Below, in pieces: positions 1,052-25,759 of a stretch of DNA of 27,695 nucleotides. Each line of letters starts with the position of its first letter. Position 1 is the stretch's first letter. The stretch is taken from IMG/VR virus record IMGVR_UViG_3300045988_163776, positions 128,001 to 155,695 of that record; one strand, 5' to 3'. The notes below the pieces were generated by a model that was given only the letters and a program-made list of their open reading frames with translations, did not search any database and was not told where the DNA came from. This DNA comes from a virus. The translations under genes were made by a program, and so were the position numbers.

Positions 1052-1091
1052 ATATATATAATAAAAGAAGTTGAAAAGAGGTTGATTTAAA

Positions 1092-2760: not shown

Positions 2761-2804
2761 AATTATAGAAAATAAATAATAAAGAAGAAAGGATGTTGAA
2801 AAAC

Positions 2805-3224: not shown

Positions 3225-3235
3225 TTATTGTTTAA

Positions 3236-3270
3236 AAAGGAGTAGAAATTTTATCTACTCCTTTTTTTTC
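3236..3270 (+). terminator. rho-independent terminator
   Basis: GGAGTAGAAATTTTATCTACTCC hairpin followed by TTTTTTTTC. Confidence 0.8.
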
Positions 3271-3339
3271 TTTTATCTGCTCCGGCCGGATACGCACATA
3301 AACACCGCAAATCCAAAGAAAAATGGATTTAGAAAATTT

Positions 3340-3368
3340 TTGACAAAATTCTTAATTTATGGTATTAT
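3340..3368 (+). promoter_or_regulatory. sigma70 promoter
   Basis: TTGACA, 17 nt, TATTAT, directly upstream of the 3390 gene. Confidence 0.7.
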
Positions 3369-3389
3369 AAAAATGAAGGAGTGATAATA

Positions 3390-4193
3390 ATGAAATATTC
3401 ATTACCAAATAGAATATCATTACAATATTTAAAGCAAGCAGATGAAATAAAAATACAAAAATCTGATTGCGAGAAAACAATAGATTATATAGAAGATTAT
3501 CCAGAAGCAGAAATAGTATTATGTATAGAAGATCTAAAACAACAATTTTCAGGAAATGAAGAGGTCATTACGAATACATTGAAAATGTATAAAGAAGAAA
3601 GTAATAAAAAATTTAGTATAGAGCTAGAGCATTTAAATGAAGATGTTGCGTTATTAAAAAAATTGGAAATTCCTTTCTTCTGGAAATATCCAGTGACTAC
3701 TTTTGATGAATTGCAAGCTTTAAAGGAATTAGGAGTTTCACAAGTATTAATAGATGGTCCTCTCTTTTTTCAGATGAGAGAAGTAAAGAGATTTCATATT
3801 CCAATTAGAGTAATTCCAAATGTATGTTACGAGAACTATCTTCCAAGAGCAAATGGTTTGCATGGAACTTGGATGCGCCCGCAAGATCAAGATTTATATG
3901 ACCAATATGTTTCTATTTTAGAATTTAAAGAAAAAGATTTCACCAAATTAGAAGCCTTATTTGACATATATTCTAAAGATAAAACATATTTTGGAGATTT
4001 GAATACATTATTTACAAATTTTGGTTTTACTATTCCTATACTTGCGGCAGCAGTACCTCGAGATGTCATTAAGTCTAGATTAAACTGTGGTCAACGCTGT
4101 ACACAGAATCGTTGTCACTTATGTGAGCGAGGATTGTCTGTTGGTTTACAAGTGCAGACAAGTGAGTATATTAGAGTAAAAGAGCAAAATTGA
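3390..4193 (+). CDS. hypothetical protein
   Basis: ORF with RBS AAGGAG 9 nt upstream of ATG 3390 (a GTG at 3381 is also possible). C-terminal CGQRCTQNRCHLCERG Cys cluster. Ends TGA. Confidence 0.7.
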   Translation: MKYSLPNRISLQYLKQADEIKIQKSDCEKTIDYIEDYPEAEIVLCIEDLKQQFSGNEEVITNTLKMYKEESNKKFSIELEHLNEDVALLKKLEIPFFWKYPVTTFDELQALKELGVSQVLIDGPLFFQMREVKRFHIPIRVIPNVCYENYLPRANGLHGTWMRPQDQDLYDQYVSILEFKEKDFTKLEALFDIYSKDKTYFGDLNTLFTNFGFTIPILAAAVPRDVIKSRLNCGQRCTQNRCHLCERGLSVGLQVQTSEYIRVKEQN

Positions 4194-4218
4194 TTTTTTA
4201 TTAAAAATATTATATAAT
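4190..4218 (+). promoter_or_regulatory. sigma70-like promoter (conserved family)
   Basis: TTGATT, 17 nt, TATAAT. Confidence 0.65.
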
Positions 4219-4268
4219 TATTATAGAAAAAAATGAAAAAAATAATTATATAAGGGGTGTTTATAGAT

Positions 4269-5294
4269 ATGCTTACTTTTTCAGAACAGCAATTTAAAAC
4301 TTTTAAGCAAATTGCCCAGTTAAAACAATCTGGTTTGAAAAAGGTTTTAGTGTCTTTCTTAAGAAAACATTATAGCCAAAACCGAGTTTTTTACTCTGAG
4401 CATTATATTTATGCTATTGGAGATATTCCTATTGCATTAGTGGCGCATTTAGACACTGTTCATAAAAAAATTCCAAGTCAAATATTTTGGGACAGAGAAG
4501 AAGATGTGGTTTGGAGTCCCCAAGGGTTAGGGGCAGATGATAGGGCTGGAGTATATGCTATTATGCAGATTATTTCTTCTGGACTACGACCTCACATTAT
4601 TTTTACGACAGATGAAGAAATTGGTGGAATAGGAGCTATTTTATTATCTAAACGAACAAATCCTTTTGCAGATTTACGTTATATGATAGAGCTTGACCGC
4701 AGAGGTTTTACAGATTGTGTTTTTTATGATTGTAATAATAAAGATTTTGAAAAATATATAGAATCTTTTGGATTTGAGACAGATTGGGGCACCTATTCAG
4801 ATATCTGCGAATTAAGTCCAAGCTGGAAAATTGCAGGTGTAAATTTATCCATAGGATATTTTAATGAGCATTCTTTCGCAGAGTATTTAGAACCTAATAT
4901 ATTAATGAATACTATAAAAAAAGTTAAAGAGATGTTAAAAACACCTAAAGAAGATATTCCTGTGTTTAAATATATTCCTTATAAATCTTCTAAACCGGGT
5001 TTTGTTTACGACACAGATGAAAATTATAAAAAATTAGCTTTAGCTTATGGATATAATTTTTATGATGATGAGATAGGAATAATTTGTTCAGGTTGCCATG
5101 AAGCATTTTTTGAAGATGAAGTATTCCCAGTAAAAAGTGTTGATGGAACTACGAAATATTATTGTCCAGATTGTGTTACAGATAATATAGAATGGTGCAT
5201 TAGGTGTAATGAGCCTTTTGAAAAAGAAAATCCAGAAGATACTAATATATTATGCAAAGATTGTAGAAAAATTAAGGAGGCTTCTTCTAAATGA
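4269..5294 (+). CDS. M20/M28/M42-like metallopeptidase-fold protein with C-terminal zinc ribbon
   Basis: Motifs resemble zinc aminopeptidase families: ALVAHLDTVHKK, GLGADDRAGVYAIMQ, FTTDEEIGGIGA. C-terminus CSGCH...CPDC...CIRC...CKDC resembles the zinc ribbons of the flanking paralogs. ATG 4269 follows RBS AAGGGG. Confidence 0.55.
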   Translation: MLTFSEQQFKTFKQIAQLKQSGLKKVLVSFLRKHYSQNRVFYSEHYIYAIGDIPIALVAHLDTVHKKIPSQIFWDREEDVVWSPQGLGADDRAGVYAIMQIISSGLRPHIIFTTDEEIGGIGAILLSKRTNPFADLRYMIELDRRGFTDCVFYDCNNKDFEKYIESFGFETDWGTYSDICELSPSWKIAGVNLSIGYFNEHSFAEYLEPNILMNTIKKVKEMLKTPKEDIPVFKYIPYKSSKPGFVYDTDENYKKLALAYGYNFYDDEIGIICSGCHEAFFEDEVFPVKSVDGTTKYYCPDCVTDNIEWCIRCNEPFEKENPEDTNILCKDCRKIKEASSK

Positions 5295-6667
5295 GTTGTT
5301 TATTTACAATAGCAAAACAATTTGAACAGGTAATTGATTATTCTCAAGGATTTAAACCGGCACAATCAAAACAAGTTATAAAACAATGGTTTAAAGCTAA
5401 AAAACCTTTCATAAAAAAATTAGGTGGTTTTATATATGAATATCCAGAAACTATAACAACAGATTTATCAGATGCAGAAAAAAGAATGAAAATTAGTGAT
5501 TTTACTGACTGGGTAGAAAGAAAATATGGCTTATATGATTTATCTAATTTTATTACAGCAAATGAAAAAACTTTTTTTGAAAATGCAGTAGCAGAAGAAT
5601 ATAAATATAAAGGTATTATTATACCAAAAGGAATGAAATTATTAAAAGCTTTTAAATATTTTGAAGAGAATAAAGATATTTTAAACGATATTCAAAATGT
5701 GGCAAGTATGTCTATACAAGAAAATAAAATTTCTGGAAAACTATGTTTATCAGTGCATCCACTAGACTTTTTATCCAGTAGCGAGAATACTCTTAATTGG
5801 CGGTCTTGTCATGCCCTTGACGGAGAATATCGCGCGGGGAATTTAAGCTATATGCTTGATGGGAGTACAATAATTTGTTATTTAAAGACAGATGAAGAAG
5901 TAAAGCTTCCACGTTTCCCCTCAAGCGTACCTTGGAACAATAAAAAATGGCGTTGTTTATTATTCTTTTCAGAAAATAATAAAATGATGTTTGCGGGACG
6001 CCCTTATCCATTCGCTGCAAATGGACTTTTAAATAAAATAAGAGATATAGTTCAAGAATTAAAATTGATTGAAGTATTAAATCAACCTTATTGGAGAAAA
6101 CAATACCTTAGCGAATGGCGAAATGATTATGTTGATACTTTTAATTTTTCAGATGGGACACAAGTTAAATTAGAGAGTAGGTTTATTTTAGATTGTTATA
6201 GTGAACTAGTACGTCTGGAAGAAATAATAACAAATGGACAAGGAAGTTGTCATTATAACGATTTGCTATATTCTTCTTGTTATGTGCCTTATTATGTTCA
6301 AGTAGAGTCTGGAGATCATGTCCCAAAGTATAAAAACTATTTTAAAATTGGAGCTAGAACTTTATGCCTTAATTGCGGGAAGTATGAAATATCAGACCCA
6401 GATTCAATGCTATGTGAAGACTGTCTTGATTATTATGATTCAGAAGATTGCTTAGATGAAACATTCTGTTCTGAATGCGGAGCAATAGTTGAAGAGGGTG
6501 AAGGAGAGTTTGCTGCAACAGGGGAGTTTTTATGCCCTCATTGTATAGAAGAATATACCCAAAGATGCTATAAATGTAATGCACGATATTATCAAAATGA
6601 TATGTCTGTTGTTCGAGATGAAGATAATACTCATGTACATTGGATTTGTGCAAATTGTAAGGAATAG
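5291..6667 (+). CDS. Cys-rich zinc-ribbon protein, paralog family A (function unknown)
   Basis: 458 aa. ATG overlaps the previous stop (ATGA) and follows RBS AAGGAGG. Shares LCLSVHPLDFLSSSENTLNWRSCH...GEYRAGN...WNNKKWR with the 1092-2735 product, and a C-terminal CxxC-rich region. Terminates at TAG 6665-6667, with an in-frame TAA 11 codons downstream. Confidence 0.8.
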   Translation: MSCLFTIAKQFEQVIDYSQGFKPAQSKQVIKQWFKAKKPFIKKLGGFIYEYPETITTDLSDAEKRMKISDFTDWVERKYGLYDLSNFITANEKTFFENAVAEEYKYKGIIIPKGMKLLKAFKYFEENKDILNDIQNVASMSIQENKISGKLCLSVHPLDFLSSSENTLNWRSCHALDGEYRAGNLSYMLDGSTIICYLKTDEEVKLPRFPSSVPWNNKKWRCLLFFSENNKMMFAGRPYPFAANGLLNKIRDIVQELKLIEVLNQPYWRKQYLSEWRNDYVDTFNFSDGTQVKLESRFILDCYSELVRLEEIITNGQGSCHYNDLLYSSCYVPYYVQVESGDHVPKYKNYFKIGARTLCLNCGKYEISDPDSMLCEDCLDYYDSEDCLDETFCSECGAIVEEGEGEFAATGEFLCPHCIEEYTQRCYKCNARYYQNDMSVVRDEDNTHVHWICANCKE

Positions 6668-6689
6668 GAAGAAGAGGAGGAAGAATATT

Positions 6690-7001
6690 ATGGCGGCTAA
6701 AGGAACAGAAGCGAAAAATTTAGTTATTTCAAAAATTAAAGAAGCCTTTGGAGAAGATTATATTTTAACAGAAGGCAGTAAAGTCTATGTGTGGGCAGAA
6801 GATGGAGCTAATGGTAGAGTGCAAATAGCTATGACTTTAACTTGCCCAAAAGTAATGGTTGGCGAATGTGCATCAGTTGCAGTAGTTGGCAATCAGTTGG
6901 ATTTTGAAGCAGAATTGCCGCATGCACAAGTGGACTCTGCGCAAATAACTGAACAGGAAAAAAATAATATTGAAGAACTCATGAAACGTTTGAATCTATA
7001 A
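6690..7001 (+). CDS. hypothetical protein
   Basis: RBS GAGGAGG then ATG 6690. 103 aa. Ends TAA. Confidence 0.65.
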   Translation: MAAKGTEAKNLVISKIKEAFGEDYILTEGSKVYVWAEDGANGRVQIAMTLTCPKVMVGECASVAVVGNQLDFEAELPHAQVDSAQITEQEKNNIEELMKRLNL

Positions 7002-7039
7002 CACTATATTATTAAGAAATAAAATTTGTGGTCATTTTT

Positions 7040-7085
7040 GTTCTAAGAGAAAGTAATAATTTTTAAGAATATTACTTTCTCTTCT
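7040..7085 (+). terminator. long hairpin (putative terminator)
   Basis: AAGAGAAAGTAATA...TATTACTTTCTCTT, a 14-bp perfect inverted repeat downstream of the 6690 gene. Confidence 0.5.
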
Positions 7086-7100
7086 GGATAAAAATTATAT

Positions 7101-7129
7101 TTGAAAATTTAAAAAAAATATAATATAAT
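7101..7129 (+). promoter_or_regulatory. sigma70-like promoter (conserved family)
   Basis: TTGAAA, 17 nt, TATAAT, then ATATATGTAATAAAGATAAAAAAC. Confidence 0.65.
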
Positions 7130-7171
7130 ATATATGTAATAAAGATAAAAAACAAAAAAAATAAAAACTTT

Positions 7172-7200
7172 TTGATTTTTATAAAAATTTATTATATAAT
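7172..7200 (+). promoter_or_regulatory. sigma70-like promoter (conserved family)
   Basis: TTGATT, 17 nt, TATAAT, then ATATATGTAATAAAAAAG. Confidence 0.65.
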
Positions 7201-7249
7201 ATATATGTAATAAAAAAGAAAAGTTAATTTTTTAAATAAAAAATCTTAT

Positions 7250-7278
7250 TTGAAAAATTAAAAAAAATATTATATAAT
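7250..7278 (+). promoter_or_regulatory. sigma70-like promoter (conserved family) at the head of the tRNA array
   Basis: TTGAAA, AATTAAAAAAAATATTA, TATAAT. Confidence 0.7.
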
Positions 7279-7307
7279 ATATATATAATAAAGATAAAAA
7301 ATAAATA

Positions 7308-7380
7308 TCATCTTATGGTGCAAAAGGATAGCACACTGTTGTACAGCAGAGATAAAGGTTCGAATCCTTGAAAGATGATC
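7308..7380 (+). tRNA. tRNA-like gene, anticodon arm non-canonical
   Basis: Acceptor CATCTTA/AAAGATG. D-arm GTGC-AAAAGGATA-GCAC is nearly identical to the tRNA-Gln D-arm. T-arm AAGG-TTCGAAT-CCTT. The anticodon region CTGTTGTACAGCAG folds only with a 6-nt loop, so isotype is unresolved. Confidence 0.4.
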
Positions 7381-7384
7381 TATT

Positions 7385-7700
7385 TAGTAAAATGGTTTAT
7401 AATTTAAGTTTTCCGGAAAAACTTAGTACAATCATTGGATTTATATTATGAGTTCGAGTCTCATTAGCTTGCTACAGTAAAGGACGAATATAAAAACTTA
7501 AAATGTATTAGAGGTCAGCTCTGTGGTGAGAGTGAGTACTAAGATACAGGAGATTGGAAGTAAGCAATACACACCACTGAGCTTACTTTTGAGAGATATG
7601 AGATAGAACCTCCTCGTGGTTTCTCTCGGGCAATGCCTTAATAACTTTTGTTTATAGTTAATATGGTAGCAAATCTATCTTTACCCCTTTCCTTATAATA
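7385..7700 (+). ncRNA. uncharacterised structured non-coding region (several hairpins, tRNA T-arm-like fragment)
   Basis: No ORF. Hairpins AAGTTTTCCGGAAAAACTT, AAGTAAGC...GCTTACTT and GAGAG...CTCTC. Also an isolated ATGAG-TTCGAGT-CTCAT T-arm-like element without a matching acceptor stem. Confidence 0.3.
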
Positions 7701-7855
7701 CTTAAAAAAAAGACAGTATCAGCAAATGAAATGCGTTAAATTAGGGATTTAAAGTGCTTTTATAAAACTGTCTTGTAATATGGTTCTATGGTTTAAGAAA
7801 TTAAAGTACTGTTTTATCATAGTAGAGCTTAAATCTCATAGAACCACCATTATAT

Positions 7856-7928
7856 AGTGATGTAGTTCAGTTGGCAGAACACCTCTCTAATACGGAGGAA
7901 GTCATAGGTTCAAACCCTATTATCACTA
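7856..7928 (+). tRNA. tRNA with anticodon AAT by manual fold (Ile-type?)
   Basis: Good cloverleaf: acceptor AGTGATG/TATCACT, D-arm GTTC-AGTTGGCA-GAAC (same as the tRNA-Lys copy), anticodon stem CCTCT/GGAGG with loop CTAATAC, T-arm ATAGG-TTCAAAC-CCTAT. A34 is unusual for a bacterial-type tRNA. Confidence 0.55.
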
Positions 7929-8522
7929 TCTTGTGTCGTCGTCAGCGACTATAAATAACTGTGCAGGTTCCCGTGCGATAGCGGATGTGCAAGCTAATCC
8001 ACAAACATACTATCGCCTATATTCCTCTATAGCTCAGCTGGAGGAGCCAAATACATTGAATTGAGGGTATTAGTCCTCAATTCAATGTTCTAAAGGGATA
8101 GAGAATTTGACTTTTAATTAAGTTCTCTAGGTTCGAATTTTTATATCGACTTTTGCAATAAATCATTCGAGAGGAAGTGCGACTCGACATTACAGAGAAA
8201 TCTCAAACGTGATAAAAACGGCGTCTAAAGTCATGACAACAAACGCCATCTATAATGTGACGGATGGTATAAAGGTTGATTTGCTGTAAAAGTTGATATA
8301 GAGATTCTATTAGTTATTTATAAATTCTATTATGAAAAATACTAGTTCACCTTATATAAAATTTAAAGATTATAAGGCTTGAACAAAATAATTTTATATT
8401 TTATATAGCAGGCGGTAGGTGAAGTCATCTTTTCAGCCTCATAAGCTGAAGTAACCGGGAGCATTACCCGGGCCTGTTCCCATTAAACGTTCATTACTTA
8501 GAAGAAAGGGGAAGTGACAAAT

Positions 8523-9014
8523 ATGGCTAAAGAAATTGAAAGAAAATTTTTATTATCTCATCTTCCAAAAATCAAGGCGGATGAAATGTGGTATGTGGAA
8601 CAAGCATATATCTCAGTAGAGCCAGAAGTGAGAATACGAAACAAAAAACCTATGACAGGTTACTTCCCTGGGTCTTATTATAACAAATATTTAATGACAA
8701 TTAAAAGCGATGGTTCTTTAATAAGAGATGAAATTGAAACCCCTATTTATGAAAATTTTTATAATGAAACTATTGGTTTTATAAATAAAGAGCCAATTAA
8801 AAAGGAATACTTTGTTTATAATATAGATAATTTGCAATTGGAAGTATCAATAGTTGATAAAGAAACAGACTATAGTTTTATTTATGCAGAGGTTGAGTTT
8901 CAATCAGAAGAAGAAGCTAAAGCTTTTAAATTTCCTTTTCCAGAAATTCTTATTGAGGAAATTACTTATCAATCAGATTATAAAATGAAAAATTATTGGC
9001 TTAATAGCCGATAA
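8523..9014 (+). CDS. CYTH-domain (triphosphate tunnel metalloenzyme, CyaB/ThTPase-like) protein
   Basis: N-terminus MAKEIERKFLL matches the hallmark ExExK start of CYTH domains. 163 aa. RBS AAAGGGGAAG. Confidence 0.5.
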   Translation: MAKEIERKFLLSHLPKIKADEMWYVEQAYISVEPEVRIRNKKPMTGYFPGSYYNKYLMTIKSDGSLIRDEIETPIYENFYNETIGFINKEPIKKEYFVYNIDNLQLEVSIVDKETDYSFIYAEVEFQSEEEAKAFKFPFPEILIEEITYQSDYKMKNYWLNSR

Positions 9015-9035
9015 TTTTAAATCAAATATTTATAT

Positions 9036-9064
9036 TTGAAAAATTAAAAAAAATATTATATAAT
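9036..9064 (+). promoter_or_regulatory. sigma70-like promoter (conserved family)
   Basis: TTGAAA, AATTAAAAAAAATATTA, TATAAT, then ATATATGTAATAAAAAAGAAAGGAG. Confidence 0.7.
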
Positions 9065-9098
9065 ATATATGTAATAAAAAAGAAAGGAGTTATTGATT

Positions 9099-16886: not shown

Positions 16887-16973
16887 TGGGGATTGGTGTA
16901 ATTGGCAACACGCGGGACTCTAAATCCCGAGCTTCTGAGGCGAAAGTTCTGGGTTCGAACCCCAGATCCCCAG
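16887..16973 (+). tRNA. tRNA-Sup (anticodon CTA, reads UAG); type II-like with long variable arm, G73
   Basis: Acceptor TGGGGAT/ATCCCCA (perfect 7 bp). D-arm GTGT-AATTGGCA-ACAC. Anticodon stem CGGGA/TCCCG with loop CT-CTA-AA (U33, A37). Variable region of about 19 nt (AGCTTCTGAGGCGAAAGTT). T-arm CTGGG-TTCGAAC-CCCAG. No encoded CCA. Confidence 0.7.
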
Positions 16974-17036
16974 CGTCATCAAGTAGAAGCCTTTACGTGG
17001 CGATGATATTTAAACTAATTCTACAACATTAAATTA

Positions 17037-17303: not shown

Positions 17304-17639
17304 ATGATATATGTAAATGGTAAAGTCTTTATTTGTGATACAGAAGATGACGTAAAAAATCTTCCAACAAATCGGACTCCTGGATGTGTGGCTAAAGTAG
17401 CTAGCACTTCTAATATATATAAACTAAATGCCTCTGGCAAATGGATTCTACAAACCTCTAGTGGAGGAGGAGGCTCTTCAGAAGATATCCATATTAATAA
17501 TGCTTATCTCGATGAAGATGAAAATCTTATACTTGAATTTAATACAAGTTATAAAGAACCTTTAAAGGTTAATATCGGTTCTATTAATGAACCGGAAATC
17601 TTTTTATTACAAGAAGAAATAAAGAAAAACAAAGTTTAG
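17304..17639 (+). CDS. hypothetical protein (structural module)
   Basis: RBS AAAGGAG. 111 aa. Gly/Ser stretch SSGGGGSSED. Confidence 0.6.
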   Translation: MIYVNGKVFICDTEDDVKNLPTNRTPGCVAKVASTSNIYKLNASGKWILQTSSGGGGSSEDIHINNAYLDEDENLILEFNTSYKEPLKVNIGSINEPEIFLLQEEIKKNKV

Positions 17640-17693
17640 GACGTTAGTGAAGATTTCATTAATAGTTTGTTCAGTTAAGGAGGATAAAACAAG

Positions 17694-18389
17694 ATGCCAG
17701 AAATTACAACAAAAGAATATGTTTCTAAAGAACGTTTTGCTCAATATGACACAAAAATAAAAGCATTAATTAAGGATATTGTTGCTAAAAGTGCTTATGA
17801 TGATAGCTCTATTAAGACACAAATTAATGCAAACAAAACAGCTATAGATACTTTAAATGGTGATGCTAGCCAAGTTGGCTCAGTAGCGAAACAAGTTGCT
17901 GATGCAGTAGCTTCTATTGTTGCAAATGCTCCAGAAGCATATGATACATTAGTAGAAATTTCAGATTGGATTAGCTCACATAGTAATGATGCTTCAGCCA
18001 TGAATACTAGTATTTTAGCAAATACTAACGCTATTAATGCATTAAAGACATTAGTAGGTACGCTTCCAGATGGTGCAGCAGCCAAAACGATTATTGAATA
18101 TATTGATTCTAAAGTTACTGGAGTAAAAGATTGGACTGCAGATATAAATACAGCTAAAACAGAAGCTATTTCAACAGCTGCAGGAGACGCAACTACAAAA
18201 GCAGATAAAGCATTAGCAAATGCAAAAGCATACGCAGATGGCCTTGCAACTAATTATGCAACTGCCGCACAGGGTGCAAAAGCAGATACCGCAGTTCAGC
18301 CTGCAGATTTAGGCACAGGGGCTTATATGAACTTAACAGAAGTAACAGAAGAATACATTAATAGTTTATTTACTGCATCATCAAATTAA
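17694..18389 (+). CDS. Ala/Thr-rich coiled-coil structural protein (scaffold/decoration-like)
   Basis: RBS AAGGAGG. 231 aa, low complexity, A/T/K/D-rich helical repeats. Confidence 0.6.
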   Translation: MPEITTKEYVSKERFAQYDTKIKALIKDIVAKSAYDDSSIKTQINANKTAIDTLNGDASQVGSVAKQVADAVASIVANAPEAYDTLVEISDWISSHSNDASAMNTSILANTNAINALKTLVGTLPDGAAAKTIIEYIDSKVTGVKDWTADINTAKTEAISTAAGDATTKADKALANAKAYADGLATNYATAAQGAKADTAVQPADLGTGAYMNLTEVTEEYINSLFTASSN

Positions 18390-18394
18390 TTTTT

Positions 18395-18427
18395 TTAAAG
18401 GGGTTTATAATTTAGACCCCTTTTTAT
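18395..18427 (+). terminator. rho-independent terminator
   Basis: AAAGGGGT-TTATAATTTAG-ACCCCTTTTT with a T-run. Confidence 0.8.
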
Positions 18428-18448
18428 CTTTAAGAAAGGAGGCTAAAT

Positions 18449-20881
18449 ATGGATATTGTATCTAAAGAACGTCTTAAATTATATAACGATCTTTTAAAAT
18501 AGCGAGTACCAGACAACAATAATTATGCGAAATTAAGAGAAAAGACTCTTTCTTGTTTAACGACAGATTCTTTAGAATCATATGGCACATACATAAAAGA
18601 TGTTATTTATTATAGAGATCATATCTTATATTGCATAAAAGACACAGATAGTTTATATATAAAATATCCATCCAATAGTACAGTTTCTGAATTTAGTGGC
18701 TGTTTTGGTTCTTTTGAAAACAAAAGTATATATCTATATGAAGATAGCTCTTATTATTATATTTATACTTTAGCCATAAACGCATTAAATATAACTATTA
18801 AACAAGTTAAATTTACAAAAGCAGATGGGAATATATCTTCTTCAAAACCAATTATTACCGCTTACACTGGAGCGTTAAGCAGTGGTGATACTTTATATAA
18901 TTCAGAATTTTATGTTTATAATGATTATGCTTATATTTCTATATTAAATGGCAGTACTTATTATGTAAAGAAATTGAATTTATCATCTTCTATAACAATA
19001 AGTGATTTATATAGTAGTAGTAGTCCATTTTATATAAAGCCAGACGTATTTGATCTTTCTTGCTTTTATATATTAAATGCTACATCAGTAAAAAAAATAA
19101 GTGCAGATGGCAGCTTACAATCTACTACTAATTTACCTTATACGATTTCAACGACTGGCTTTATAGATTACTTTAACAATTATGTGGTTTATACTACAAA
19201 TGGTTTAATTTTTTATATTACAAATTTAACCACAAGCCAAACTAATATGATAGTTTGTGAAGATGATGTACCTCTTTTAGACAGCTCTAATATAAGAACT
19301 TTAAAAATAAAGAAAATTACTAATAAAGGTGCATTACAATTTTATTTAGGTTTAACAGAAGGAAGACATATTAAATTTTATAGTGATACAACATCATTTG
19401 TAAGATTAGAATATTCATTTATCGATCCTTCTAATAAAGTAATATTAAAAATAGTGGCAGACCCTTATAAAAACACTGAAAATATTTTAATTACTTATGA
19501 TACATAGGCAAAATAGATTAGGGTATTAAATGAAAATATATAGGCCTCTGGAGCTGGAATTTTAGCCAGATTACAAGATACTACTAAGCAACAAATCGCA
19601 GAGTTAACAAAAGTAAAAGATACAGTTAAAACTAATTCTGCTAACATTGGCACAATGCAATATGATATTACTCACTTAACAAACACTGTAAATATAAAGA
19701 CTTCAGATCTTGAGAAAAAAATTGTTCCAACATATAAGAATCAAGGGCTATGCGGAACAGACAGTATTGATAATTATAAAACATATGGAGTATATGCTAT
19801 TTACTCATCATCTAGTACTCCATCTGGATTGCCTTTAGATAGAGCTACAAATGAAAAAATATATTTATTTATTATAAACACTCCTTCCGTTGGAGATGAT
19901 TGTATACAAACTTTATATTACACAAAATAGAAAATAACATATCGTAGATTTTATGCAGCAGGAGAAACAGTATGGAGTGATTGGTAGAAAATTATTAATA
20001 CTCCTGAAGCTCTAAAGAATCCAAATGCACTAACACTTACTGTAAATGGTACTAGTATCCCATATGATGGTTCAGCCGCAAAAAGCTCTACATGGTATGC
20101 GCCTACTGGGGCTGGGACCAAAGGACATCAATTAGTGTCTAATGGCGCAGGTGCGCCGGTATGGGAACAACCTCCATACGCAACATGCGCAAGCACTTCG
20201 ACAGTATATGCTAAAGCAATAACAATTCCTAATTTTACTCCAGTAGCTGGAAAGCATATTTTTATTAAATTTAGCAATGCTTCATATTCTCATGTAAATA
20301 CGGCTATTAATTTATAGGTGAATGGAGTGACTAATGCAGTATACCAAAATGGTAAGGCTGTTACTGGCACAACAATGTATGCTTGGTTAGCTAATGATAT
20401 TGTTGAATTTATGTTTGATGGTAGCTATTGGCATATTATATAGATTGTTAATCGTGTAGAAGAAAATAATACTGTTGCACATACTATGAACATTGATGAT
20501 AATGGTGTGGCAATAAATACTGGTGGATATCCTGACAGTGATGCTTGGACAAAAGTATTGACTATTCCAGGGGCAAGCAGTTTAGATGTTACAGTAATAT
20601 ATTAGTCAGAATCGGCTACATATGATTGGGGTTGTGTATGGGTCGGCAACTATCCAGATTTTACTGCAGCCGCAAATTATTCAACATCTTTAACCAATAA
20701 ATTAGCTGGTAAGACAAAAACAACCGCAAATTATCAAGTAAAAGGAGATACAGTCACAGTAGCTTGGAAGTCTGATGGTTCTTCGCATAGTTATTATGGT
20801 CTTTATGTAAGCATAAAGCCTAGTCCTGTTGGAGGAATTTCTTTCTCTTCTAGTTTAACATATGAGCCTATAACGACATAA
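18449..20881 (+). CDS. large tail-fiber/receptor-binding-like protein (about 810 aa) with 9 in-frame TAG sense codons
   Basis: RBS AAGGAGG then ATG 18449. One uninterrupted frame to TAA 20879-20881 except for TAG at 18500, 19505, 19514, 19541, 19928, 19985, 20315, 20441 and 20603. Track ORFs 18974-19507, 19655-19930 and 20135-20317 are all in this same frame. Ser/Thr/Asn/Tyr-rich, beta-rich composition typical of fibre proteins. Confidence 0.7.
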
Positions 20882-20937
20882 TTTGCGTTTATATAAATTT
20901 TTTGATATAATAAAATAAAAAAGAGGGAGGTTAAGAA

Positions 20938-21540
20938 ATGCCAAGTGTTGTAAATCCAACAGACAAACTAGTGCTAACAGATACAACTTTAGAATTGCTC
21001 GTAGATCAAATACGAAATGAAATTCAAAAATTGTATAGTGCTTCTAATTTTAAAAATGTAGAGTATTTAGCTTCAGCAGAAGATGGTGGAAGTAATAAAC
21101 TTATTATTACATTAAACGATGATAGCAAAAGAGAATACATTATAAAAAATGGTAATGCTGGCGCAGATGCGAAAGTTACTGCGGAAGCAAGTATACCAAC
21201 TGATGATACTGTCGGAACTCCTTCTGTGTCTGTAGATTATAGTGTAGGAGCAGACAATACAACGAATTTAATTTTTAATTTTTCACACTTAAAAGGCGCT
21301 ACTGGTGCGGCAGGTCCACAAGGGCCATAGGGAGAACGAGGTCTACAAGGTCTGCAGGGCCCTCAAGGAGAAAAGGGAAATACTGGCGCAACTGGTCCAA
21401 GAGGTGCAACAGGCCCTCAAGGTATATAGGGTATACAAGGTCCTTAGGGAGAAAAGGGCGACCCAGGACCACAGGGTCCACAAGGCCCAAGTGTAATTAG
21501 TTTAAGTGATGACTTAAATTATGAAGGAGTAACTTTATAA
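20938..21540 (+). CDS. collagen-like (Gly-X-Y repeat) tail-fibre protein with 3 in-frame TAG codons
   Basis: Strong RBS AAGAGGGAGG. After about 130 aa, the sequence GATGAAGPQGP-[TAG]-GERGLQGLQGPQGEKGNTGATGPRGATGPQGI-[TAG]-GIQGP-[TAG]-GEKGDPGPQGPQGPS follows, then ...VISLSDDLNYEGVTL and TAA at 21538-21540. The TAGs sit exactly where Gln (CAA/CAG) occurs in neighbouring repeats. Confidence 0.75.
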
Positions 21541-21693
21541 AATTGGTAATCCAGATGGCTTCAACTTTCATTATTAGTTTTCTGGAAATAGATCTTATAA
21601 AGGATAGGAGCTTAGAGAAATATGATGTATAATAATATACATTAGTTCTTAAGAGAATATAATATAAGAAAAATGAAAGAAGGTAAATAATTA

Positions 21694-22225
21694 ATGGCTA
21701 AAATAAAGAAAATAAAAGATAATAATGGCACTACTATTTACCCTCTTACCTCGGTTGATGTAGTCTTTGACAAAAATGGTAAGACTTTGACCGGGGGGGG
21801 TGCTAAGTTTTATAGCTGGTCCTGATGATGACTTAAAGAATAATCCAACTATTAATTCTATCATAGCTTAGAACCTCACTACTAGTCTCTCCCCAAGAGG
21901 AGGTAGAGATTATGTAAGTGTTTTGTGCTTAGATAATAAATATATTCGTACTTGGTCGTTTTATAAGAAATCAGCAGCCTCGCCTGCGGAAAAAGGAGAC
22001 AAATATAATGCAAGACTCTCTGGAAGTGGAATTCTTGTATTTTGCATGACGGAATAGTCACCAAATCATATTGATGACGCCTATTTTTATCCATTTGAAT
22101 TATTAGGTACTAATTAGTATTTTAAATAGATAAACGGAATATCTTTTGATACTGAGAGCATTAATGGATTTGTAGACCCAATGGGAGATTGGGATGCTTA
22201 TTGGGTATTATTCAAAAAAGTATAA
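21694..22225 (+). CDS. tail-fibre-like protein paralog 1; reading frame interrupted at a G8 homopolymer (+1 shift needed)
   Basis: RBS AAAGAAGG then ATG 21694. N-terminus MAKIKKIKDNNGTTIYPLTSVDVVFDKNGKTLTGGG. The G8 tract at 21793-21800 leaves this frame hitting TGA at 21823-21825. The +1 frame gives a coherent protein of about 135 aa (..AGPDDDLKNNPTINSIIA-Q-NLTTSLSPRGGRDYVSV...MGDWDAYWVLFKKV) ending TAA 22223-22225, with 4 further in-frame TAGs. Confidence 0.55.
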
Positions 22226-22278
22226 TTAAAGAGAATAAATTAATATAATATTTTATTCACTTAATTTATTCTCTTTAA
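22226..22278 (+). terminator. 18-bp perfect inverted repeat hairpin
   Basis: TTAAAGAGAATAAATTAA...TTAATTTATTCTCTTTAA. Confidence 0.5.
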
Positions 22279-22306
22279 TATAAAAAAATAAAAGGAGAGA
22301 ATAAAT

Positions 22307-22751
22307 TATGGCACAAATTAAAAAATTAAAGCAAGGGGAGACAACGATTTTCCCAATGACAGATGCAAGTGCTGTACAATACGCAGGTAAAACTCTCTCG
22401 GATATGACCGGGGGGGGTCTATAGTACCCAACCCGTAAAAATTGGCACTTGGATTAATGGAAAGACAATATATAGAGAAATAAAAGAAATAGATTTTGCA
22501 TAGATAGATAAAACAGCGGACCATTTTTCATCAAATCTATCAGATTTTGGTATTTCTATAACAAAGACTGGAGGTTTACTTAATTTATATATTATAAGTT
22601 TTGCTTTTCCTTTAGATTCTGCAACTAATCAAGAAATTGGGTTTGTTTATACGCCAAATGAATTTTTAAAAGGTATAAAAGATGGGAATATAACAGAGTC
22701 ACTGTTTATTGAACCAATATATGCAATTATTACTTATGTTTCTTTAGACTA
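22307..22751 (+). CDS. tail-fibre-like protein paralog 2; reading frame interrupted at a G8 homopolymer (+1 shift needed)
   Basis: RBS AAAAGGAGAG then ATG 22307. N-terminus MAQIKKLKQGETTIFPMTDASAVQYAGKTLSDMTGGG. The G8 tract at 22409-22416 leaves this frame ending at TAA 22454-22456. The +1 frame is coherent (VYSTQPVKIGTWINGKTIYREIKEIDFA-Q-IDKTADHF...EPIYAIITYVSLD) to TAA 22749-22751. Confidence 0.55.
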
Positions 22752-22790
22752 ACTAAGAAGAATATTTTATTCTTCTTAGTAATTTAATTT
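22752..22790 (+). terminator. rho-independent terminator
   Basis: CTAAGAAGAATA-TTTT-ATTCTTCTTAG followed by TAATTTAATTTTT. Confidence 0.7.
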
Positions 22791-22812
22791 TTAATAAGGA
22801 GAATAAGATATT

Positions 22813-23265
22813 ATGGCACAAATTAAAAAATTAAAAGACAATAATAATAATACAATATATCCAATGACACAAGCATCAGCAGTTTTTCTTAATAATGGAG
22901 AACAGCTTAGTGATTATTATTTAATTAAAGATATGGTTGCGTCTAATAAAGGCGTATCTGATTTATTCAATAATAGGATATATTTTAATGATGTTGGATC
23001 TCCAATAAAAGATCCAACTTTATATTTAATAAAAATAAAAGTAAATGGTCAACAACAGCTTACTTATTATGAAAATCCATTGAATGGCTATATTGCTTCT
23101 GATTTTGATAGTGACACTGGATTTTCAACTTCGCCATTAATGGTTACTAGTTTTACAGATGGGAAAATATACAAAACAACCAAAGAGTTTTCTTTTATCT
23201 ATGATAAAAGTGATAATTCTGCTGATCTAGAAACTGGGCAAAATGATTTAATAAGTAGTTTATAG
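22813..23265 (+). CDS. tail-fibre-like protein paralog 3 (intact, no G tract)
   Basis: RBS ATAAGGAG. N-terminus MAQIKKLKDNNNNTIYPMTQASAVF is homologous to the two frame-broken paralogs. 150 aa. Ends TAG at 23263-23265, followed by TGG then GAC. Confidence 0.65.
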   Translation: MAQIKKLKDNNNNTIYPMTQASAVFLNNGEQLSDYYLIKDMVASNKGVSDLFNNRIYFNDVGSPIKDPTLYLIKIKVNGQQQLTYYENPLNGYIASDFDSDTGFSTSPLMVTSFTDGKIYKTTKEFSFIYDKSDNSADLETGQNDLISSL

Positions 23266-23311
23266 TGGGACAGCATTTGAGTAAAAATAAAAAAAGGAGA
23301 GTAAGCATAAG

Positions 23312-24241
23312 ATGCAATTAAAGTATTCTCATGGCGCATTACTTTCTCCAAAAGATGATAGAGATTATTAGTTTACAGATTTGATTGCGGGAGTTCGTTT
23401 AAGCGAGCTCCCTTCTGAGTATATAAATCCTTTAGTTCATAATGTTCCTGTTGTGGATTAGGGGTAGTCAGAAACTTGCGTAGCTTGCTCATTAACGTAT
23501 TTACGCTGGCTAACCGAACGGACGCAATCAAACAATGAAAAACAATTCTCACCAAGCTATATCTACGGCAATAGAGATAGCTTTGGATACATGGGAGAAG
23601 GTATGATAGTGCGTGAAGCACTTCAAACTTTAAGAAAGCAAGGAGTTTGTTATTATGAAGATCTACCTGGTTTTTATGATGTACAGACTTCAATTAAACA
23701 ATATAGACAAAACAGAGATACGCTTGATCCTAAAGCATATCCTTTCAGAATTTCATCATTCTATGCAGTTAGTGGAATAGAAGGAATTAAGAATGCAGTT
23801 TATAATTTAGGCGGAGTAATAGTTAGTTATCCAGTTTATTATTGTCTATATTCTCCAGATAAAGAGGGAAAAATTCAATTTGATAATAGTGTGTAGAATT
23901 TCCAAAATGGTTATCACGCAATGACTATAGTAGGATGGACTTCTACACATTGGATAGTTCTTAATTCTTGGGGAAAGAACTGGGGTAAAGATGGAATCTG
24001 CTACATTCCTTTTAGTTATCCAATAGCAGAAGCTTGGGGAATAGTAGATCAAATTACGGAGGTTATATTTAAAATGGCAAAATTTATTGATACAGAAGGT
24101 CATTGGGCAGAACAGGCTATTGATAAGGCTGCTGACAAAGGTGTTGTAAGTGGCTTTGAAGATGGGCTATTCCATCCAGATGAACCAATCACAAGAGCAT
24201 AGTTATGTTCAATCCTTGATAGACTAGGATTGTTTAACTAA
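23312..24241 (+). CDS. papain-like (C1 family) cysteine peptidase with C-terminal SLH domain; 6 in-frame TAG codons including both catalytic-motif Gln
   Basis: RBS AAAAAGGAGAG then ATG 23312. VVD-[TAG]-G-[TAG]-SETCVACS reproduces the papain DQGQ..C..C active-site motif only if TAG is Gln. Downstream YHAMTIVGW (His) and VLNSWGKNWGKDGICYI (Asn-Ser-Trp-Gly, the NSWGxxWG motif) follow. The C-terminus FIDTEGHWAEQAIDKAADKGVVSGFEDGLFHPDEPITRA-Q is an SLH-domain consensus. Further TAGs at 23369, 23894 and 24200. Ends TAA 24239-24241. Confidence 0.75.
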
Positions 24242-24248
24242 TGAAAAT

Positions 24249-24287
24249 GCGGGCCGGTCGCAAGACTGGCCCATTTTCTCTTTTAAA
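24249..24287 (+). terminator. rho-independent terminator
   Basis: GGGCCGGTC-GCAAGAC-TGGCCC followed by ATTTTCTCTTTT. Confidence 0.7.
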
Positions 24288-24414
24288 CAACTTACGCACT
24301 TCGTTTGACTATTTATTTATTTTTTGATATGATAAATATATAAGAAAATAAATAAGGAATTAAGCAATACTAATATACAGAGTATTAGATAAAATAGCAA
24401 GGAGAATAATTAAA

Positions 24415-24522
24415 ATGAAATTATATATTTACAAGTGGGACAATGATACTTTTATAGGAAGCAATAAAGGCTATATGGTAAAATATGAAGAAAAGCAGAG
24501 GTTTATAGATGCTATCTCTTAA
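24415..24522 (+). CDS. small peptide (35 aa) immediately upstream of and overlapping the radical SAM gene; candidate substrate/precursor peptide
   Basis: Strong RBS AAGGAGAATAATTAAA then ATG. MKLYIYKWDNDTFIGSNKGYMVKYEEKQRFIDAIS. The TAA at 24520-24522 overlaps the start of the next gene. Confidence 0.4.
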   Translation: MKLYIYKWDNDTFIGSNKGYMVKYEEKQRFIDAIS

Positions 24523-25759
24523 AGAATATAAAGAAGAATACCATTGTCCAATAATCGCTTGCTTAAACATAACAAATCAATGTAATCTTAAATGTCGCTA
24601 TTGCTTTGTAAATCAGAATCCAGAACGCATGTCTTTTGAAACTGCTACAACAGCAGTAACTTATTTATATAAGAACCTAACTGCGCGACGGGAAAAAACT
24701 GGGAATCCGCACCTAAAAGGCACTATTAATTTTTTTGGTGGTGAGCCACTTTTGGAATGGTCTTTAATAAAACGATTAACAGAATGGATAGAAGAAAAGT
24801 ATGCTAATTGTTTCAATTTAGGCATTACAACTAATGGTACACTATTGAACAAACAAATTATAGATTTTTTATATGAACATAAAATAATACCTTTGTTATC
24901 AATGGATGGGGATAGAGAAACACAAGAATATAATAGACCTTGCAAACTTAGAGGTAGTAGTTTTGATTTGGTTAAAACGCATTTATCTTATCTGCTGGAA
25001 AAATTCCCTAATACAGTATTTCGCATGACTATATATGAGGATACTTGTGATAAATTATTTGATAATATTATATTTGCAGAACAACAAGGCTTTAAGTATT
25101 TCTATGCAACTCCAGATAGTAGACATAATTTTTCTAAAGAAAATTTAAAAAAATTAAAAATAGAATTAGAAAAATTTTATAGTTACTTCACTATTAGTCT
25201 AATAAATGGCATTAAACCAATAGAGAGTAGCTTTATAAGAGATATGTTCCTAGGAGTATTGCGTGAGCCTAGTCTTAAGGTTAATGAACTAGACCAATTA
25301 ATACCAAGAGATATAATGAGATGTGGCCTTGGTACTGTAAGCATTAGTATTAGTCCAGATGGTAGTATATATGGGTGCCAAGAACAAGTAACTAATAATA
25401 AAGAAAATAATCTTTTTTATTTAGGGGATATATATAAAGGAATCGCGGGCGACCACCATATCAAGCTTTTAAGTGAATACAGATCGCTTTCCGCAATCAC
25501 AAGTGAATCCGCAAGTTTATGCGAAGATTGTGGGTATCGTAAATTATGTTATCAAGTTCAATGTCCTTCAATGGCAAAACAAAGATTTGATAATTTTTTT
25601 ATATTGCCAGAGACAATGTGCTTCTGGAATCGAACTTTATATGATTTAACAAAACAAGTTTTATCAATATATAATGAAAATATAGAACGATATTTAACAG
25701 AAATAATTGAGGAGGAAGAGGAATATGAGTTATATTGTAGGAGGAACAACTTATCCTGA
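24509..25759 (+). CDS. radical SAM enzyme with C-terminal SPASM/twitch domain
   Basis: N-terminal CNLKCRYC (CxxxCxxC, the SAM-cluster motif). C-terminal Cys clusters MRCGLGTVSISISPDGSIYGCQEQ and CEDCGYRKLCYQVQCP are typical of SPASM-domain maturases. 416 aa. Confidence 0.75.
   Translation: MLSLKEYKEEYHCPIIACLNITNQCNLKCRYCFVNQNPERMSFETATTAVTYLYKNLTARREKTGNPHLKGTINFFGGEPLLEWSLIKRLTEWIEEKYANCFNLGITTNGTLLNKQIIDFLYEHKIIPLLSMDGDRETQEYNRPCKLRGSSFDLVKTHLSYLLEKFPNTVFRMTIYEDTCDKLFDNIIFAEQQGFKYFYATPDSRHNFSKENLKKLKIELEKFYSYFTISLINGIKPIESSFIRDMFLGVLREPSLKVNELDQLIPRDIMRCGLGTVSISISPDGSIYGCQEQVTNNKENNLFYLGDIYKGIAGDHHIKLLSEYRSLSAITSESASLCEDCGYRKLCYQVQCPSMAKQRFDNFFILPETMCFWNRTLYDLTKQVLSIYNENIERYLTEIIEEEEEYELYCRRNNLS

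What the first reader, a model, noticed from the sequence alone, without database searches (positions are those of the whole stretch)
6665..6698. An early gene terminates at TAG although TAG is a sense codon elsewhere; a backup TAA lies 11 codons downstream
Gene 5291-6667 is the only early gene ending in TAG. If TAG were decoded as Gln, the protein would gain QEEEEEEYYGG and stop at TAA 6696-6698, overlapping the next start (ATG 6690). This pattern of TAG as a stop in early genes and as a sense codon in late genes, with a tolerated short read-through tail, suggests that recoding begins only after the suppressor tRNA is expressed.
Basis: inference. Interest (0 to 1): 0.55.

Follow-up and report, generated by a model that had tools for sequence, protein, structure and literature searches.

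The report
Ambiguous TAG in a dispensable protein tail
In a gut phage that reads TAG as glutamine, one TAG-poor-block gene has a TAG in its variable acidic tail, so it yields a 458- or 469-residue protein depending on suppressor tRNA level; this is an ordinary case of published "dual-coded" phage genes.

Summary
The gene at 5291-6667 ends in TAG, read-through adds QEEEEEEYYGG, and the next gene starts at ATG 6690. The backup TAA is at 6698-6700, not 6696-6698.

The window is a TAG-to-Gln (code 15) phage with a tRNA-CUA at 16887-16973. In-frame TAGs are strongly partitioned: 2 in 3113 codons in the first block against 23 in 2857 in the structural block (p=5.6e-6).

The details do not support a designed early stop plus a late suppressor:
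- A stop within 10 codons is expected by chance (P about 0.44-0.62).
- The "EEEEEE" tail is the translated ribosome-binding site of the next gene.
- Homologues normally carry an acidic tail (median 10.5 residues), so the read-through form is the family-typical one.
- A second lineage independently has a TAG in the same tail.
- The TAG-poor block does contain a sense TAG (12812), and a 10-TAG homing endonuclease lies upstream of the tRNA.
- The tRNA-CUA promoter belongs to the same 12-copy promoter family that drives the TAG-free genes.

Public databases already hold both the 458-aa and 469-aa calls. This is a new member of a known kind: a "dual-coded isoform" (Pfennig et al.) within the code-switch model of Borges et al.

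The parts
5291..6667 (+). Focal gene, short reading (458 aa, stops at TAG). It belongs to a conserved phage protein family of unknown function and is a paralogue of 1092-2735. Its C-terminal part holds several CxxC zinc-ribbon motifs.
   Evidence: phrog_18912; 2135 homologues at E<=1e-5; AlphaFold2 pLDDT 90.5; no PDB fold match.
6665..6667 (+). The TAG codon. It acts as a stop without suppressor and as Gln with tRNA-CUA.
   Evidence: Conserved in L007 (97% nt identity) and L008 (87% nt identity); at 87% identity a codon survives unchanged by chance about 66% of the time.
6668..6700 (+). Read-through tail EEEEEEYYGG plus TAA 6698-6700. The long reading is 469 aa.
   Evidence: The 469-aa form is the gene call on ENA contig ERZ28573263 scaffold_68.
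6674..6680 (+). GAGGAGG ribosome-binding site of the next gene, 9 nt before ATG 6690. It is the source of the Glu run in the tail.
   Evidence: The same layout, with the ribosome-binding site inside the homologue's acidic tail, is seen in L001, L005, L009 and L012.
6690..7001 (+). Conserved 103-aa downstream partner gene (begins MAAKGTEAK...). Its start overlaps the read-through tail.
4190..4218 (+). Sigma-70-like promoter (TTGATT-17-TATAAT) ahead of the operon 4269-7001 that contains the focal gene.
12719..12937 (+). 72-aa ORF in the TAG-poor/tRNA block with a sense TAG at 12812-12814.
   Evidence: reciprocal CAA/TAG exchange with the L009 homologue.
15039..16001 (+). HNH-type homing endonuclease with 10 in-frame TAGs, located upstream of the suppressor tRNA.
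   Evidence: phrog_374, E 4e-40.
16788..16830 (+). Promoter of the tRNA-CUA (TTGAAA-17-TGnTATAAT followed by ATAATAAA). It is a member of the family TTG-N20-TATAAT-N6-RTAATAAA.
   Evidence: (9 exact copies against 0.01 expected).
16887..16973 (+). Suppressor tRNA with anticodon CUA. It has a Gln-like acceptor end (U1-A72, G73) and an unusual 15-nt insertion in the variable arm.
   Evidence: (Rfam tRNA, 57.7 bits).
16975..17024 (+). Candidate theta (minimal HDV-like) ribozyme directly 3' of the tRNA-CUA. The putative catalytic C is at 17015.
   Evidence: own motif scan; weak hit to the HDV-fold CPEB3 ribozyme, 16964-17025, E 0.32. The known tRNA-Sup association is in PMC10879173.
17089..17111 (+). 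Terminator-like hairpin that closes the tRNA-CUA transcription unit.
17304..27525 (+). TAG-rich block: 23 in-frame TAGs in 2857 codons. It encodes a collagen-like fibre, an 810-aa tail protein, a C1 peptidase with an SLH domain and a radical SAM protein, and contains no member of the promoter family.

Best explanation
The TAG at 6665 is an ambiguous ('dual-coded') codon in the dispensable, Glu-rich C-terminal tail of a conserved phage protein, in a phage that decodes TAG as glutamine.

Mechanism:
- Where host RF1 wins, translation stops and gives a 458-aa protein.
- Where the phage tRNA-CUA wins, Gln is inserted. The ribosome then runs 10 more codons through the next gene's ribosome-binding site and start codon, and stops at TAA 6698-6700, giving a 469-aa protein.
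- The 469-aa end is the family-typical layout, with the stop next to or overlapping the downstream start.
- Both products are probably functional, and their ratio follows the suppressor level.
- The TAG probably arose by a single change from a Glu or Gln codon (GAG or CAG to TAG). It persists because either reading is harmless at this position, not because it times anything.

Shown: the anatomy, TAG=Gln, the variability of the tail in the family, and independent recurrence in a second lineage. Inferred: the mixture of isoforms, neutrality, and the ancestral codon.
For: TAG=Gln:
- The TAG at 23459 aligns with the Gln of the DQG motif just before the active-site Cys in cysteine protease 3ois_A. 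From my own knowledge, this is the oxyanion-hole Gln of papain-like proteases.
- There is a reciprocal CAA/TAG exchange in ORF 12719 against L009.
- TAGs occupy the Q position of the GPQ/GIQ collagen triplets.
- In L012 a TAG aligns with Q in the orthologue of gene 3390.

Tail:
- Among 120 homologues the tail after the last CxxC has a median of 10.5 residues, an interquartile range of 8-16, and is 23% Glu. Only 4 have 2 residues or fewer, and two of those are the window's own clade.
- TAA-terminated 1-residue tails exist in L013 and L014, so the tail is dispensable.
- In L001, L005, L009 and L012 the ribosome-binding site of the next gene lies inside the tail, and the stop abuts or overlaps the next ATG.

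Independent recurrence: L010 and L012 (about 49% identity, on a 153-kb contig with its own tRNA-CUA) read ...PCID-TAG-GAG-GAG-TAT-TAA, where sister sequences have Glu at the TAG position.

Both isoforms are already in public data for identical DNA: 469 aa on ERZ28573263 and 458 aa on ERZ918906, and likewise P0014 against P0016.

The backup stop is at chance distance.

The concept is published as dual-coded genes and isoforms (Pfennig et al., 10.1101/2022.06.29.495998).
Against: - There is no expression or proteomic evidence here for either isoform.
- The TAG is retained in three relatives. That could reflect selection, but at 87% nt identity it is expected by chance about 66% of the time.
- Recurrence of a TAG in the same tail in two lineages could also be read as convergent selection for a function.
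- The efficiency of this tRNA-CUA against host RF1 is unknown.
Confidence: 0.68

Rival explanations
1. First reader's model. TAG 6665 is the true stop of an early gene translated under the standard code. The suppressor tRNA appears only later, switching the cell to TAG=Gln for late genes. The short tail with a backup TAA is an adaptation that limits damage after the switch.
For: - In-frame TAG is strongly partitioned: 2/3113 against 23/2857 codons, p=5.6e-6. A further 8 genes upstream and 3 large genes downstream are also TAG-free.
- The tRNA-CUA sits just 5' of the TAG-rich block, as reported for code-15 phages.
- This is the general model of Borges et al..
Against: - The backup stop is at chance distance.
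- The tail is the next gene's ribosome-binding site.
- The truncated form is atypical for the family.
- A sense TAG occurs in the TAG-poor block, and the 10-TAG endonuclease lies upstream of the tRNA.
- In L012 an orthologous gene of the same block has internal TAGs.
- The tRNA-CUA promoter belongs to the same 12-member family as the promoters of the TAG-free genes.
- 'Early' is not shown for any gene here. No replication or transcription genes were identified.
Confidence: 0.15
2. The TAG is simply a sense Gln codon. The gene is translated only when suppressor is present, and the one real product is the 469-aa protein. The 458-aa 'gene' is an artefact of standard-code annotation.
For: - The 13-residue acidic tail matches the family norm.
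- The stop overlapping the next start matches the relatives.
- The focal operon and the tRNA-CUA have the same type of promoter.
- Code-15 gene callers already give 469 aa.
Against: - The other 13 genes of this block avoid TAG almost completely. This suggests they must be translatable without suppression.
- Suppression is rarely complete when host RF1 is present (my own knowledge). Some 458-aa product is therefore expected.
Confidence: 0.12
3. Regulatory switch. Reading through the TAG sends ribosomes across the ribosome-binding site and ATG of gene 6690, to terminate at ATGGCGGCTAA. Suppressor level would then change the translational coupling, and so the expression, of the downstream gene.
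For: - The geometry fits: the TAG is 22 nt upstream of the ATG, and the TAA is 5 nt (6693-6697) beyond the ATG.
- A TAG just before the next gene's ribosome-binding site recurs in L010 and L012.
Against: - Relatives that lack the TAG have the same overlap.
- Both termination sites are close enough for coupling.
- There are no data on expression.
Confidence: 0.05

Closest known systems
TAG-to-Gln (genetic code 15) gut phages with a code-switch life cycle (Ivanova 2014; Yutin 2021; Borges et al., bioRxiv 10.1101/2021.08.26.457843; proteomic validation in PMC9523058)
   Same: Suppressor tRNA-CUA, low G+C, and in-frame TAGs concentrated in structural genes. There is a TAG-poor block that can be translated with the host code, and the tRNA lies at the 5' edge of the recoded block.
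   Different: A different phage lineage: no DNA match in GenBank phages, and the focal protein has only distant hits in Enterococcus phages. No release factor or aminoacyl-tRNA synthetase gene was seen in the roughly 41 kb examined.
'Dual-coded' early genes and isoforms of Mgcod (Pfennig et al., bioRxiv 10.1101/2022.06.29.495998)
   Same: A gene without internal TAG whose products under code 11 and code 15 share the start and differ only by a short C-terminal extension. The authors proposed a 'soft switch' that does not disrupt early genes.
   Different: The two stops are 33 nt apart here, just over Mgcod's default 30-nt equivalence threshold. This study adds family-wide evidence that the tail is variable and dispensable.
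Theta (minimal HDV-like) ribozymes 3' of phage suppressor tRNAs (Kienbeck et al. 2024, PMC10879173)
   Same: About 50-57 nt, and it starts within 2 nt of the tRNA 3' end. P1, P2 and P3 can all be drawn, with a C in J4/2, and no CCA is encoded for the tRNA-CUA. The genome is code 15.
   Different: Found only by my own motif scan and a sub-threshold Rfam hit. P1 has 6 rather than 7 base pairs after the tRNA-CUA, and P4 is minimal or unclear. Self-cleavage is untested.
Classical amber suppression by tRNA-Gln(CUA) (E. coli supE), and natural C-terminal read-through isoforms such as the Q-beta A1 protein (both from my own knowledge)
   Same: A stop codon is partly decoded by a suppressor tRNA, giving a short form and a C-terminally extended form from one gene.
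   Different: In Q-beta the extension is essential. Here nothing indicates that the extension has a function of its own.

Membership tests
Code-15 (TAG=Gln) recoded phage | A suppressor tRNA with anticodon CUA is encoded | tested here: met
   ARAGORN and Rfam tRNA at 57.7 bits, at 16887-16973.
Code-15 (TAG=Gln) recoded phage | In-frame TAGs in conserved genes align with Gln in homologues | tested here: met
   DQG motif Gln before the active-site Cys of the C1 peptidase, CAA/TAG exchange, TAG aligned with Q in the L012 orthologue, and GPq collagen triplets.
Code-15 (TAG=Gln) recoded phage | Coding density rises when TAG is read as sense | tested here: met
   Plus-strand ORFs of 100 aa or more cover 16,926 nt under the standard code and 21,540 nt with TAG as sense, out of 27,695 nt.
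Code-15 (TAG=Gln) recoded phage | The suppressor tRNA has Gln isotype | tested here: inconclusive
   The acceptor end (UGGGGAU...AUCCCCA plus G73) resembles the phage tRNA-Gln(UUG). However, the tRNA has a class-II-like long variable arm, and its overall identity is no higher to Gln than to Leu or Trp. Charging is not testable here.
Temporal code switch (Borges model) | TAG-free genes are expressed early, and the suppressor acts before the late genes | not testable with these tools
   Only promoter inference is available. The tRNA-CUA shares the promoter family of the TAG-free genes, and the TAG-rich block has no member of it.
Temporal code switch (Borges model) | In-frame TAGs are enriched in structural and lysis genes relative to the rest | tested here: met
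   2/3113 against 23/2857 codons, p=5.6e-6. Functions.
Dual-coded gene / isoform (Mgcod) | Same start, no internal reassigned stop, and products under the two codes differ only by a short C-terminal extension | tested here: met
   458 aa against 469 aa. Both calls exist in public records. The 33-nt difference slightly exceeds Mgcod's default of t=30.
Theta ribozyme | Cleavage site within 5 nt of a tRNA 3' end | tested here: met
   Candidates start at 16975 (tRNA ends at 16973) and at 12509 (tRNA-Pro ends at 12508/9). By my own estimate from the 7 scan loci and the 16 tRNA ends, about 0.04 such coincidences are expected by chance.
Theta ribozyme | HDV-like nested helices P1, P2 and P3 with a catalytic C in J4/2 | tested here: inconclusive
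   The helices can be drawn in both copies with different sequences, and L3 (TTYACGT) and C-TAA are conserved. The Rfam hit to the HDV-fold CPEB3 model is below threshold (15.7 bits, E 0.32). P1.1 and P4 are not resolved.
Theta ribozyme | Mg-dependent self-cleavage that is abolished by a C-to-U change | not testable with these tools
   Needs an in vitro transcription assay.

The most novel reading that the evidence does not exclude
The tail TAG is a selected sensor of suppressor level. As tRNA-CUA accumulates, ribosomes are redirected across the ribosome-binding site and start of the conserved 103-aa downstream gene, and the zinc-ribbon protein gains an acidic tail. Either effect could change downstream expression or protein activity during the code switch. 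Recurrence of a TAG at the same junction in a second lineage (L010/L012) would then be convergence rather than drift.
Probability: 0.06. Interest if true: 0.5.

Novelty: new member of a known kind. Interest (0 to 1): 0.2.

Why it matters
If the majority reading is right, its value is practical.

- Annotation pipelines give two different proteins for the same DNA. Both calls are already in public databases.
- In code-15 phages, a "TAG stop" in a TAG-poor gene should be treated as an ambiguous codon.
- The locus illustrates where TAGs can drift into genes that must work under both codes, namely dispensable tails.
- The tRNA-CUA has a promoter of the same family as the TAG-free genes and a candidate theta ribozyme. 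This makes the phage a reasonable system for testing whether the code switch is a gradual, concentration-driven one rather than a timed one.

Tried and rejected
- DNA searches found nothing: megablast of 4000-12000 against GenBank phages, and the exact 39-mer in IMG/VR and in JGI metagenomes.
- The identity of the focal protein stayed unknown. There was no Pfam hit, no significant PDB sequence hit, and no fold match. The afdb50 library was not available.
- The base after the TAG (+4 position) does not separate the focal TAG from sense TAGs or from true stops.
- Isotyping the tRNA-CUA by similarity to the phage's other tRNAs was not discriminating.
- A leader motif, ACAGCAAwwTTATT, upstream of suppressor tRNAs was not significant in the window.
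- I considered whether the TAGs close to the C-termini of late genes (17637, 23263, 24200, 26340) are former stops. I rejected this for two of them. The tail after 17637 repeats a motif found at the C-terminus of the neighbouring protein, and 24200 lies inside the SLH domain.
- No theta ribozyme was found next to tRNAs in the related loci.

Full report
**What the window is**

All substantial genes lie on the plus strand of a roughly 31% G+C sequence. It carries 16 ARAGORN tRNAs, including a tRNA with anticodon CUA at 16887-16973. Exact-protein look-ups show the window is identical to parts of two human-gut metagenome contigs. One is ENA ERZ28573263 scaffold_68 (155,711 bp) and the other is ERZ918906 k127_75698 (33,390 bp). 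No GenBank phage is close at the DNA level.

**The observation**

- The focal ORF starts at ATG 5291. This overlaps the upstream stop as ATGA and is preceded by AAGGAGG. The ORF ends at TAG 6665-6667, giving 458 aa.
- Reading TAG as sense adds QEEEEEEYYGG.
- The next in-frame stop is TAA 6698-6700.
- The next gene starts at ATG 6690. Its ribosome-binding site, GAGGAGG (6674-6680), lies inside the "tail". The Glu run is therefore the purine-rich ribosome-binding site read in the upstream frame, and the TAA is made from codons 3-4 of the next gene (GCT AAA).

**Is it more than chance?**

- A TAA or TGA within 10 codons is expected with P=0.44 from any position, and 0.53 from base composition. 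It occurs after 62% of the real gene ends in this window. The "backup stop" carries no information.
- One TAG stop among 14 genes has no statistical power.
- The partition of in-frame TAGs is significant. There are 2 in 3113 codons for genes at 93-14480 and 23 in 2857 codons for genes at 17304-27525 (Fisher p=5.6e-6). Off-frame TAG density is similar in both blocks.
- Extending along the source contigs adds 8 upstream plus-strand genes and 3 large downstream genes (502, 918 and 825 aa) with no in-frame TAG.

**TAG is decoded as Gln**

- In the C1 peptidase (23312-24241), the TAG at 23459 aligns with the Gln of the DQG motif just before the active-site Cys in cysteine protease 3ois_A. From my own knowledge, this is the oxyanion-hole Gln of papain-like proteases.
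- In the collagen-like fibre, TAGs occupy the Q position of repeated GPQ/GIQ triplets.
- In the 72-aa ORF 12719-12937, the window reads CAA-CTA-TAG where relative L009 reads TAG-TTA-CAA.
- In L012, a TAG aligns with Q in the orthologue of gene 3390-4193.
- The tRNA-CUA has a Gln-like acceptor end (U1-A72, G73). It also has a 15-nt variable-arm insertion that is shared with the tRNA-CUA of L003 and, in similar form, of L012. Similarity to the phage's other tRNAs does not settle the isotype.

**The "early block" is not TAG-free**

- The TAG at 12812 is an internal sense codon in a gene with a strong ribosome-binding site in the tRNA region.
- A homing endonuclease with 10 in-frame TAGs (15039-16001; phrog_374, E 4e-40) lies upstream of the suppressor tRNA.
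- In relative L012, the orthologue of window gene 3390-4193 (52% identity) carries two internal TAGs.
- Upstream of the window, two small minus-strand genes end in TAG. One of them is an RHH_1 protein.
- "Early" itself is an inference. None of the TAG-poor genes has a recognisable replication or transcription function.

**What homologues say about the focal C-terminus**

- The family is large: 2135 proteins at E<=1e-5, many on contigs of 120-200 kb.
- It has a paralogue in the window (1092-2735) and a conserved motif, LCLSxHPLD...W.SC...GEYR.G, followed by CxxC pairs.
- A high-confidence AlphaFold2 model (pLDDT 90.5) matches nothing in the PDB, so the function is unknown.
- After the last CxxC, 120 homologues have tails with a median of 10.5 residues, an interquartile range of 8-16, and 23% Glu. 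Only four have 2 residues or fewer, and two of those are the window's own clade.
- The 13-residue read-through tail is therefore the typical state, and the 2-residue TAG-terminated tail the unusual one. TAA-terminated 1-residue tails do exist (L013, L014), so the tail is dispensable.
- In L001, L005, L009 and L012 the next gene's ribosome-binding site lies inside the tail, and the stop abuts or overlaps the next ATG.
- The TAG is kept in L007 (97% nt identity) and L008 (87% nt identity). At that divergence a codon survives unchanged by chance about two times in three.
- L009 (57% aa identity) ends in TAA. Five IMG/VR relatives end in TAA or TGA with no TAG.

**An independent second case**

- In the clade of P0013-P0020 (about 49% identity), contigs L010 and L012 read ...CCT TGT ATA GAT TAG GAG GAG TAT TAA TAATG.
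- Sister proteins have Glu at the TAG position (IDEEEY).
- L012 is part of a 153-kb contig with its own tRNA-CUA.
- For identical DNA, databases hold both "NPCID" (P0016) and "NPCIDQEEY" (P0014).
- The same is true of the window gene, which is called as 469 aa on one contig and 458 aa on the other.

**When is the suppressor made?**

- The tRNA-CUA is its own transcription unit. It has a promoter at 16788-16830 (TTGAAA-17-TGnTATAAT), a candidate ribozyme at 16975-17024 and a terminator-like hairpin at 17089-17111.
- Its promoter fits an extended family, TTG-N20-TATAAT-N6-RTAATAAA. The window has 9 exact plus-strand copies (0.01 expected), and there are 12 copies in the roughly 41.6 kb examined.
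- These copies precede TAG-free genes and tRNA clusters. None lies inside the TAG-rich block at 17.3-27.5 kb.
- By inference only, the suppressor is transcribed together with the TAG-poor genes. This fits a gradual "soft" switch (Pfennig et al.; Kienbeck et al., "always on" alternative) better than a delayed one.

**Mechanism proposed**

The TAG is an ambiguous codon in a dispensable tail. RF1 termination gives 458 aa, and Gln insertion gives 469 aa ending at the family-typical position. The ratio of the two follows the suppressor level. The TAG most likely arose from GAG or CAG by one change and persists because both readings are harmless. Confidence is about 0.68. The rival explanations and their refuting results are listed in the Rival explanations section.

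**Comparison with what is known**

- The life-cycle model is that of Borges et al..
- The specific pattern, same start and stops a few codons apart under the two codes, is the "dual-coded gene/isoform" of Pfennig et al.. They also reported the Sup-CTA tRNA at the 5' end of the recoded block.
- The pairing of a tRNA-Sup with a ribozyme is that of Kienbeck et al..
- The locus is a new member of a known kind. Interest is low (0.2).

Noticed in passing
window 16975-17024 and 12509-12565: Two candidate theta (minimal HDV-like) ribozymes lie directly 3' of tRNA-CUA and tRNA-Pro(UGG). The P1, P2 and P3 helices differ in sequence but keep their pairing. L3 (TTYACGT) and the J4/2 C-TAA are conserved. 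In L009 the cassette after tRNA-Pro is precisely absent, although the flanks are conserved.
   Followed up: partly
window 1023, 7101, 7172, 7250, 9036, 10603, 16788, 27542, 27641; L018 3306; L019 18619: An extended sigma-70-like promoter family, TTG-N20-TATAAT-N6-RTAATAAA. The window has 9 exact copies against 0.01 expected, all on the plus strand. All precede TAG-free genes or tRNAs, and none lies in the TAG-rich block.
   Followed up: partly
window 16887-16973; L003 20648-20735; L012 15513-15601: The suppressor tRNAs of three divergent phages share an unusual insertion of about 15 nt in the variable arm (GCYTYTGARGCG...), on an otherwise Gln-like or class-I body. The isotype is not settled.
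   Followed up: partly
window 16830-16886; L012 and L003 upstream of their tRNA-CUA: A 5' leader hairpin, with a 7-9 bp stem enclosing an AT-rich loop of about 30-55 nt, precedes the suppressor tRNA in all three loci, and the stems differ in sequence. A candidate loop motif was not significant.
   Followed up: partly
window 12719-12937: A 72-aa ORF with a strong ribosome-binding site, a hydrophobic N-terminal part and a coiled-coil-like C-terminal part. It has a sense TAG at 12812, exchanged reciprocally with CAA in the L009 homologue.
   Followed up: yes
window 15039-16001: An HNH-type homing endonuclease inside the tRNA cluster has the highest TAG density in the window (10 in 320 codons). 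A second endonuclease, of the GIY-YIG/NUMOD type, at 9636-10130 has none.
   Followed up: partly
window 1092-2735 and 5291-6667: Two paralogues of a very large phage protein family (2135 hits at E<=1e-5). They have invariant His, Trp and Cys residues and several zinc ribbons. The AlphaFold2 model has pLDDT 90.5, there is no Pfam family and there is no PDB fold match. This is a well-folded family of unknown function.
   Followed up: partly
window 17120-17200: A stretch richer in G+C than its AT-rich surroundings lies between the tRNA-CUA terminator and the first TAG-rich gene. It has no ORF and no Rfam hit.
   Followed up: no
window 12566-12608 against L009 about 12620-12673: The intergenic sequence downstream of tRNA-Pro (TAATAGGTAGCTCGACAGTACCTCCAAGCTAGCATA) is about 90% conserved with a relative whose focal protein is only 57% identical.
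   Followed up: no
window 11037-11109, 13082-13156, and 7309-7378, 10296-10367, 13182-13252, 13283-13353, 14589-14673: ARAGORN reports two tRNA-like genes with 4-nt or 2-nt anticodons. Rfam finds five further low-scoring tRNA-like elements that ARAGORN misses.
   Followed up: no
window 17640-17678 and 18345-18389: Adjacent genes 17304-17678 and 17694-18389 end in a shared motif, E[DE][FY]INSLF[ST]. In the first gene the motif lies after the TAG at 17637, which shows that this TAG is a sense codon.
   Followed up: partly
L018 522-2186 (5.7 kb upstream of the window, minus strand): A divergently oriented cluster of four small genes, including an RHH_1 (Arc/CopG-like) protein. Two of the four end in TAG under the standard code.
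   Followed up: no
L019 13638-21162 (downstream of the window): Three large TAG-free genes follow the TAG-rich block: a DUF2828/DUF7788 protein, a 918-aa SLH-domain protein and an 825-aa protein with a major-vault-protein shoulder domain hit. Each group follows a promoter of the family described above.
   Followed up: no
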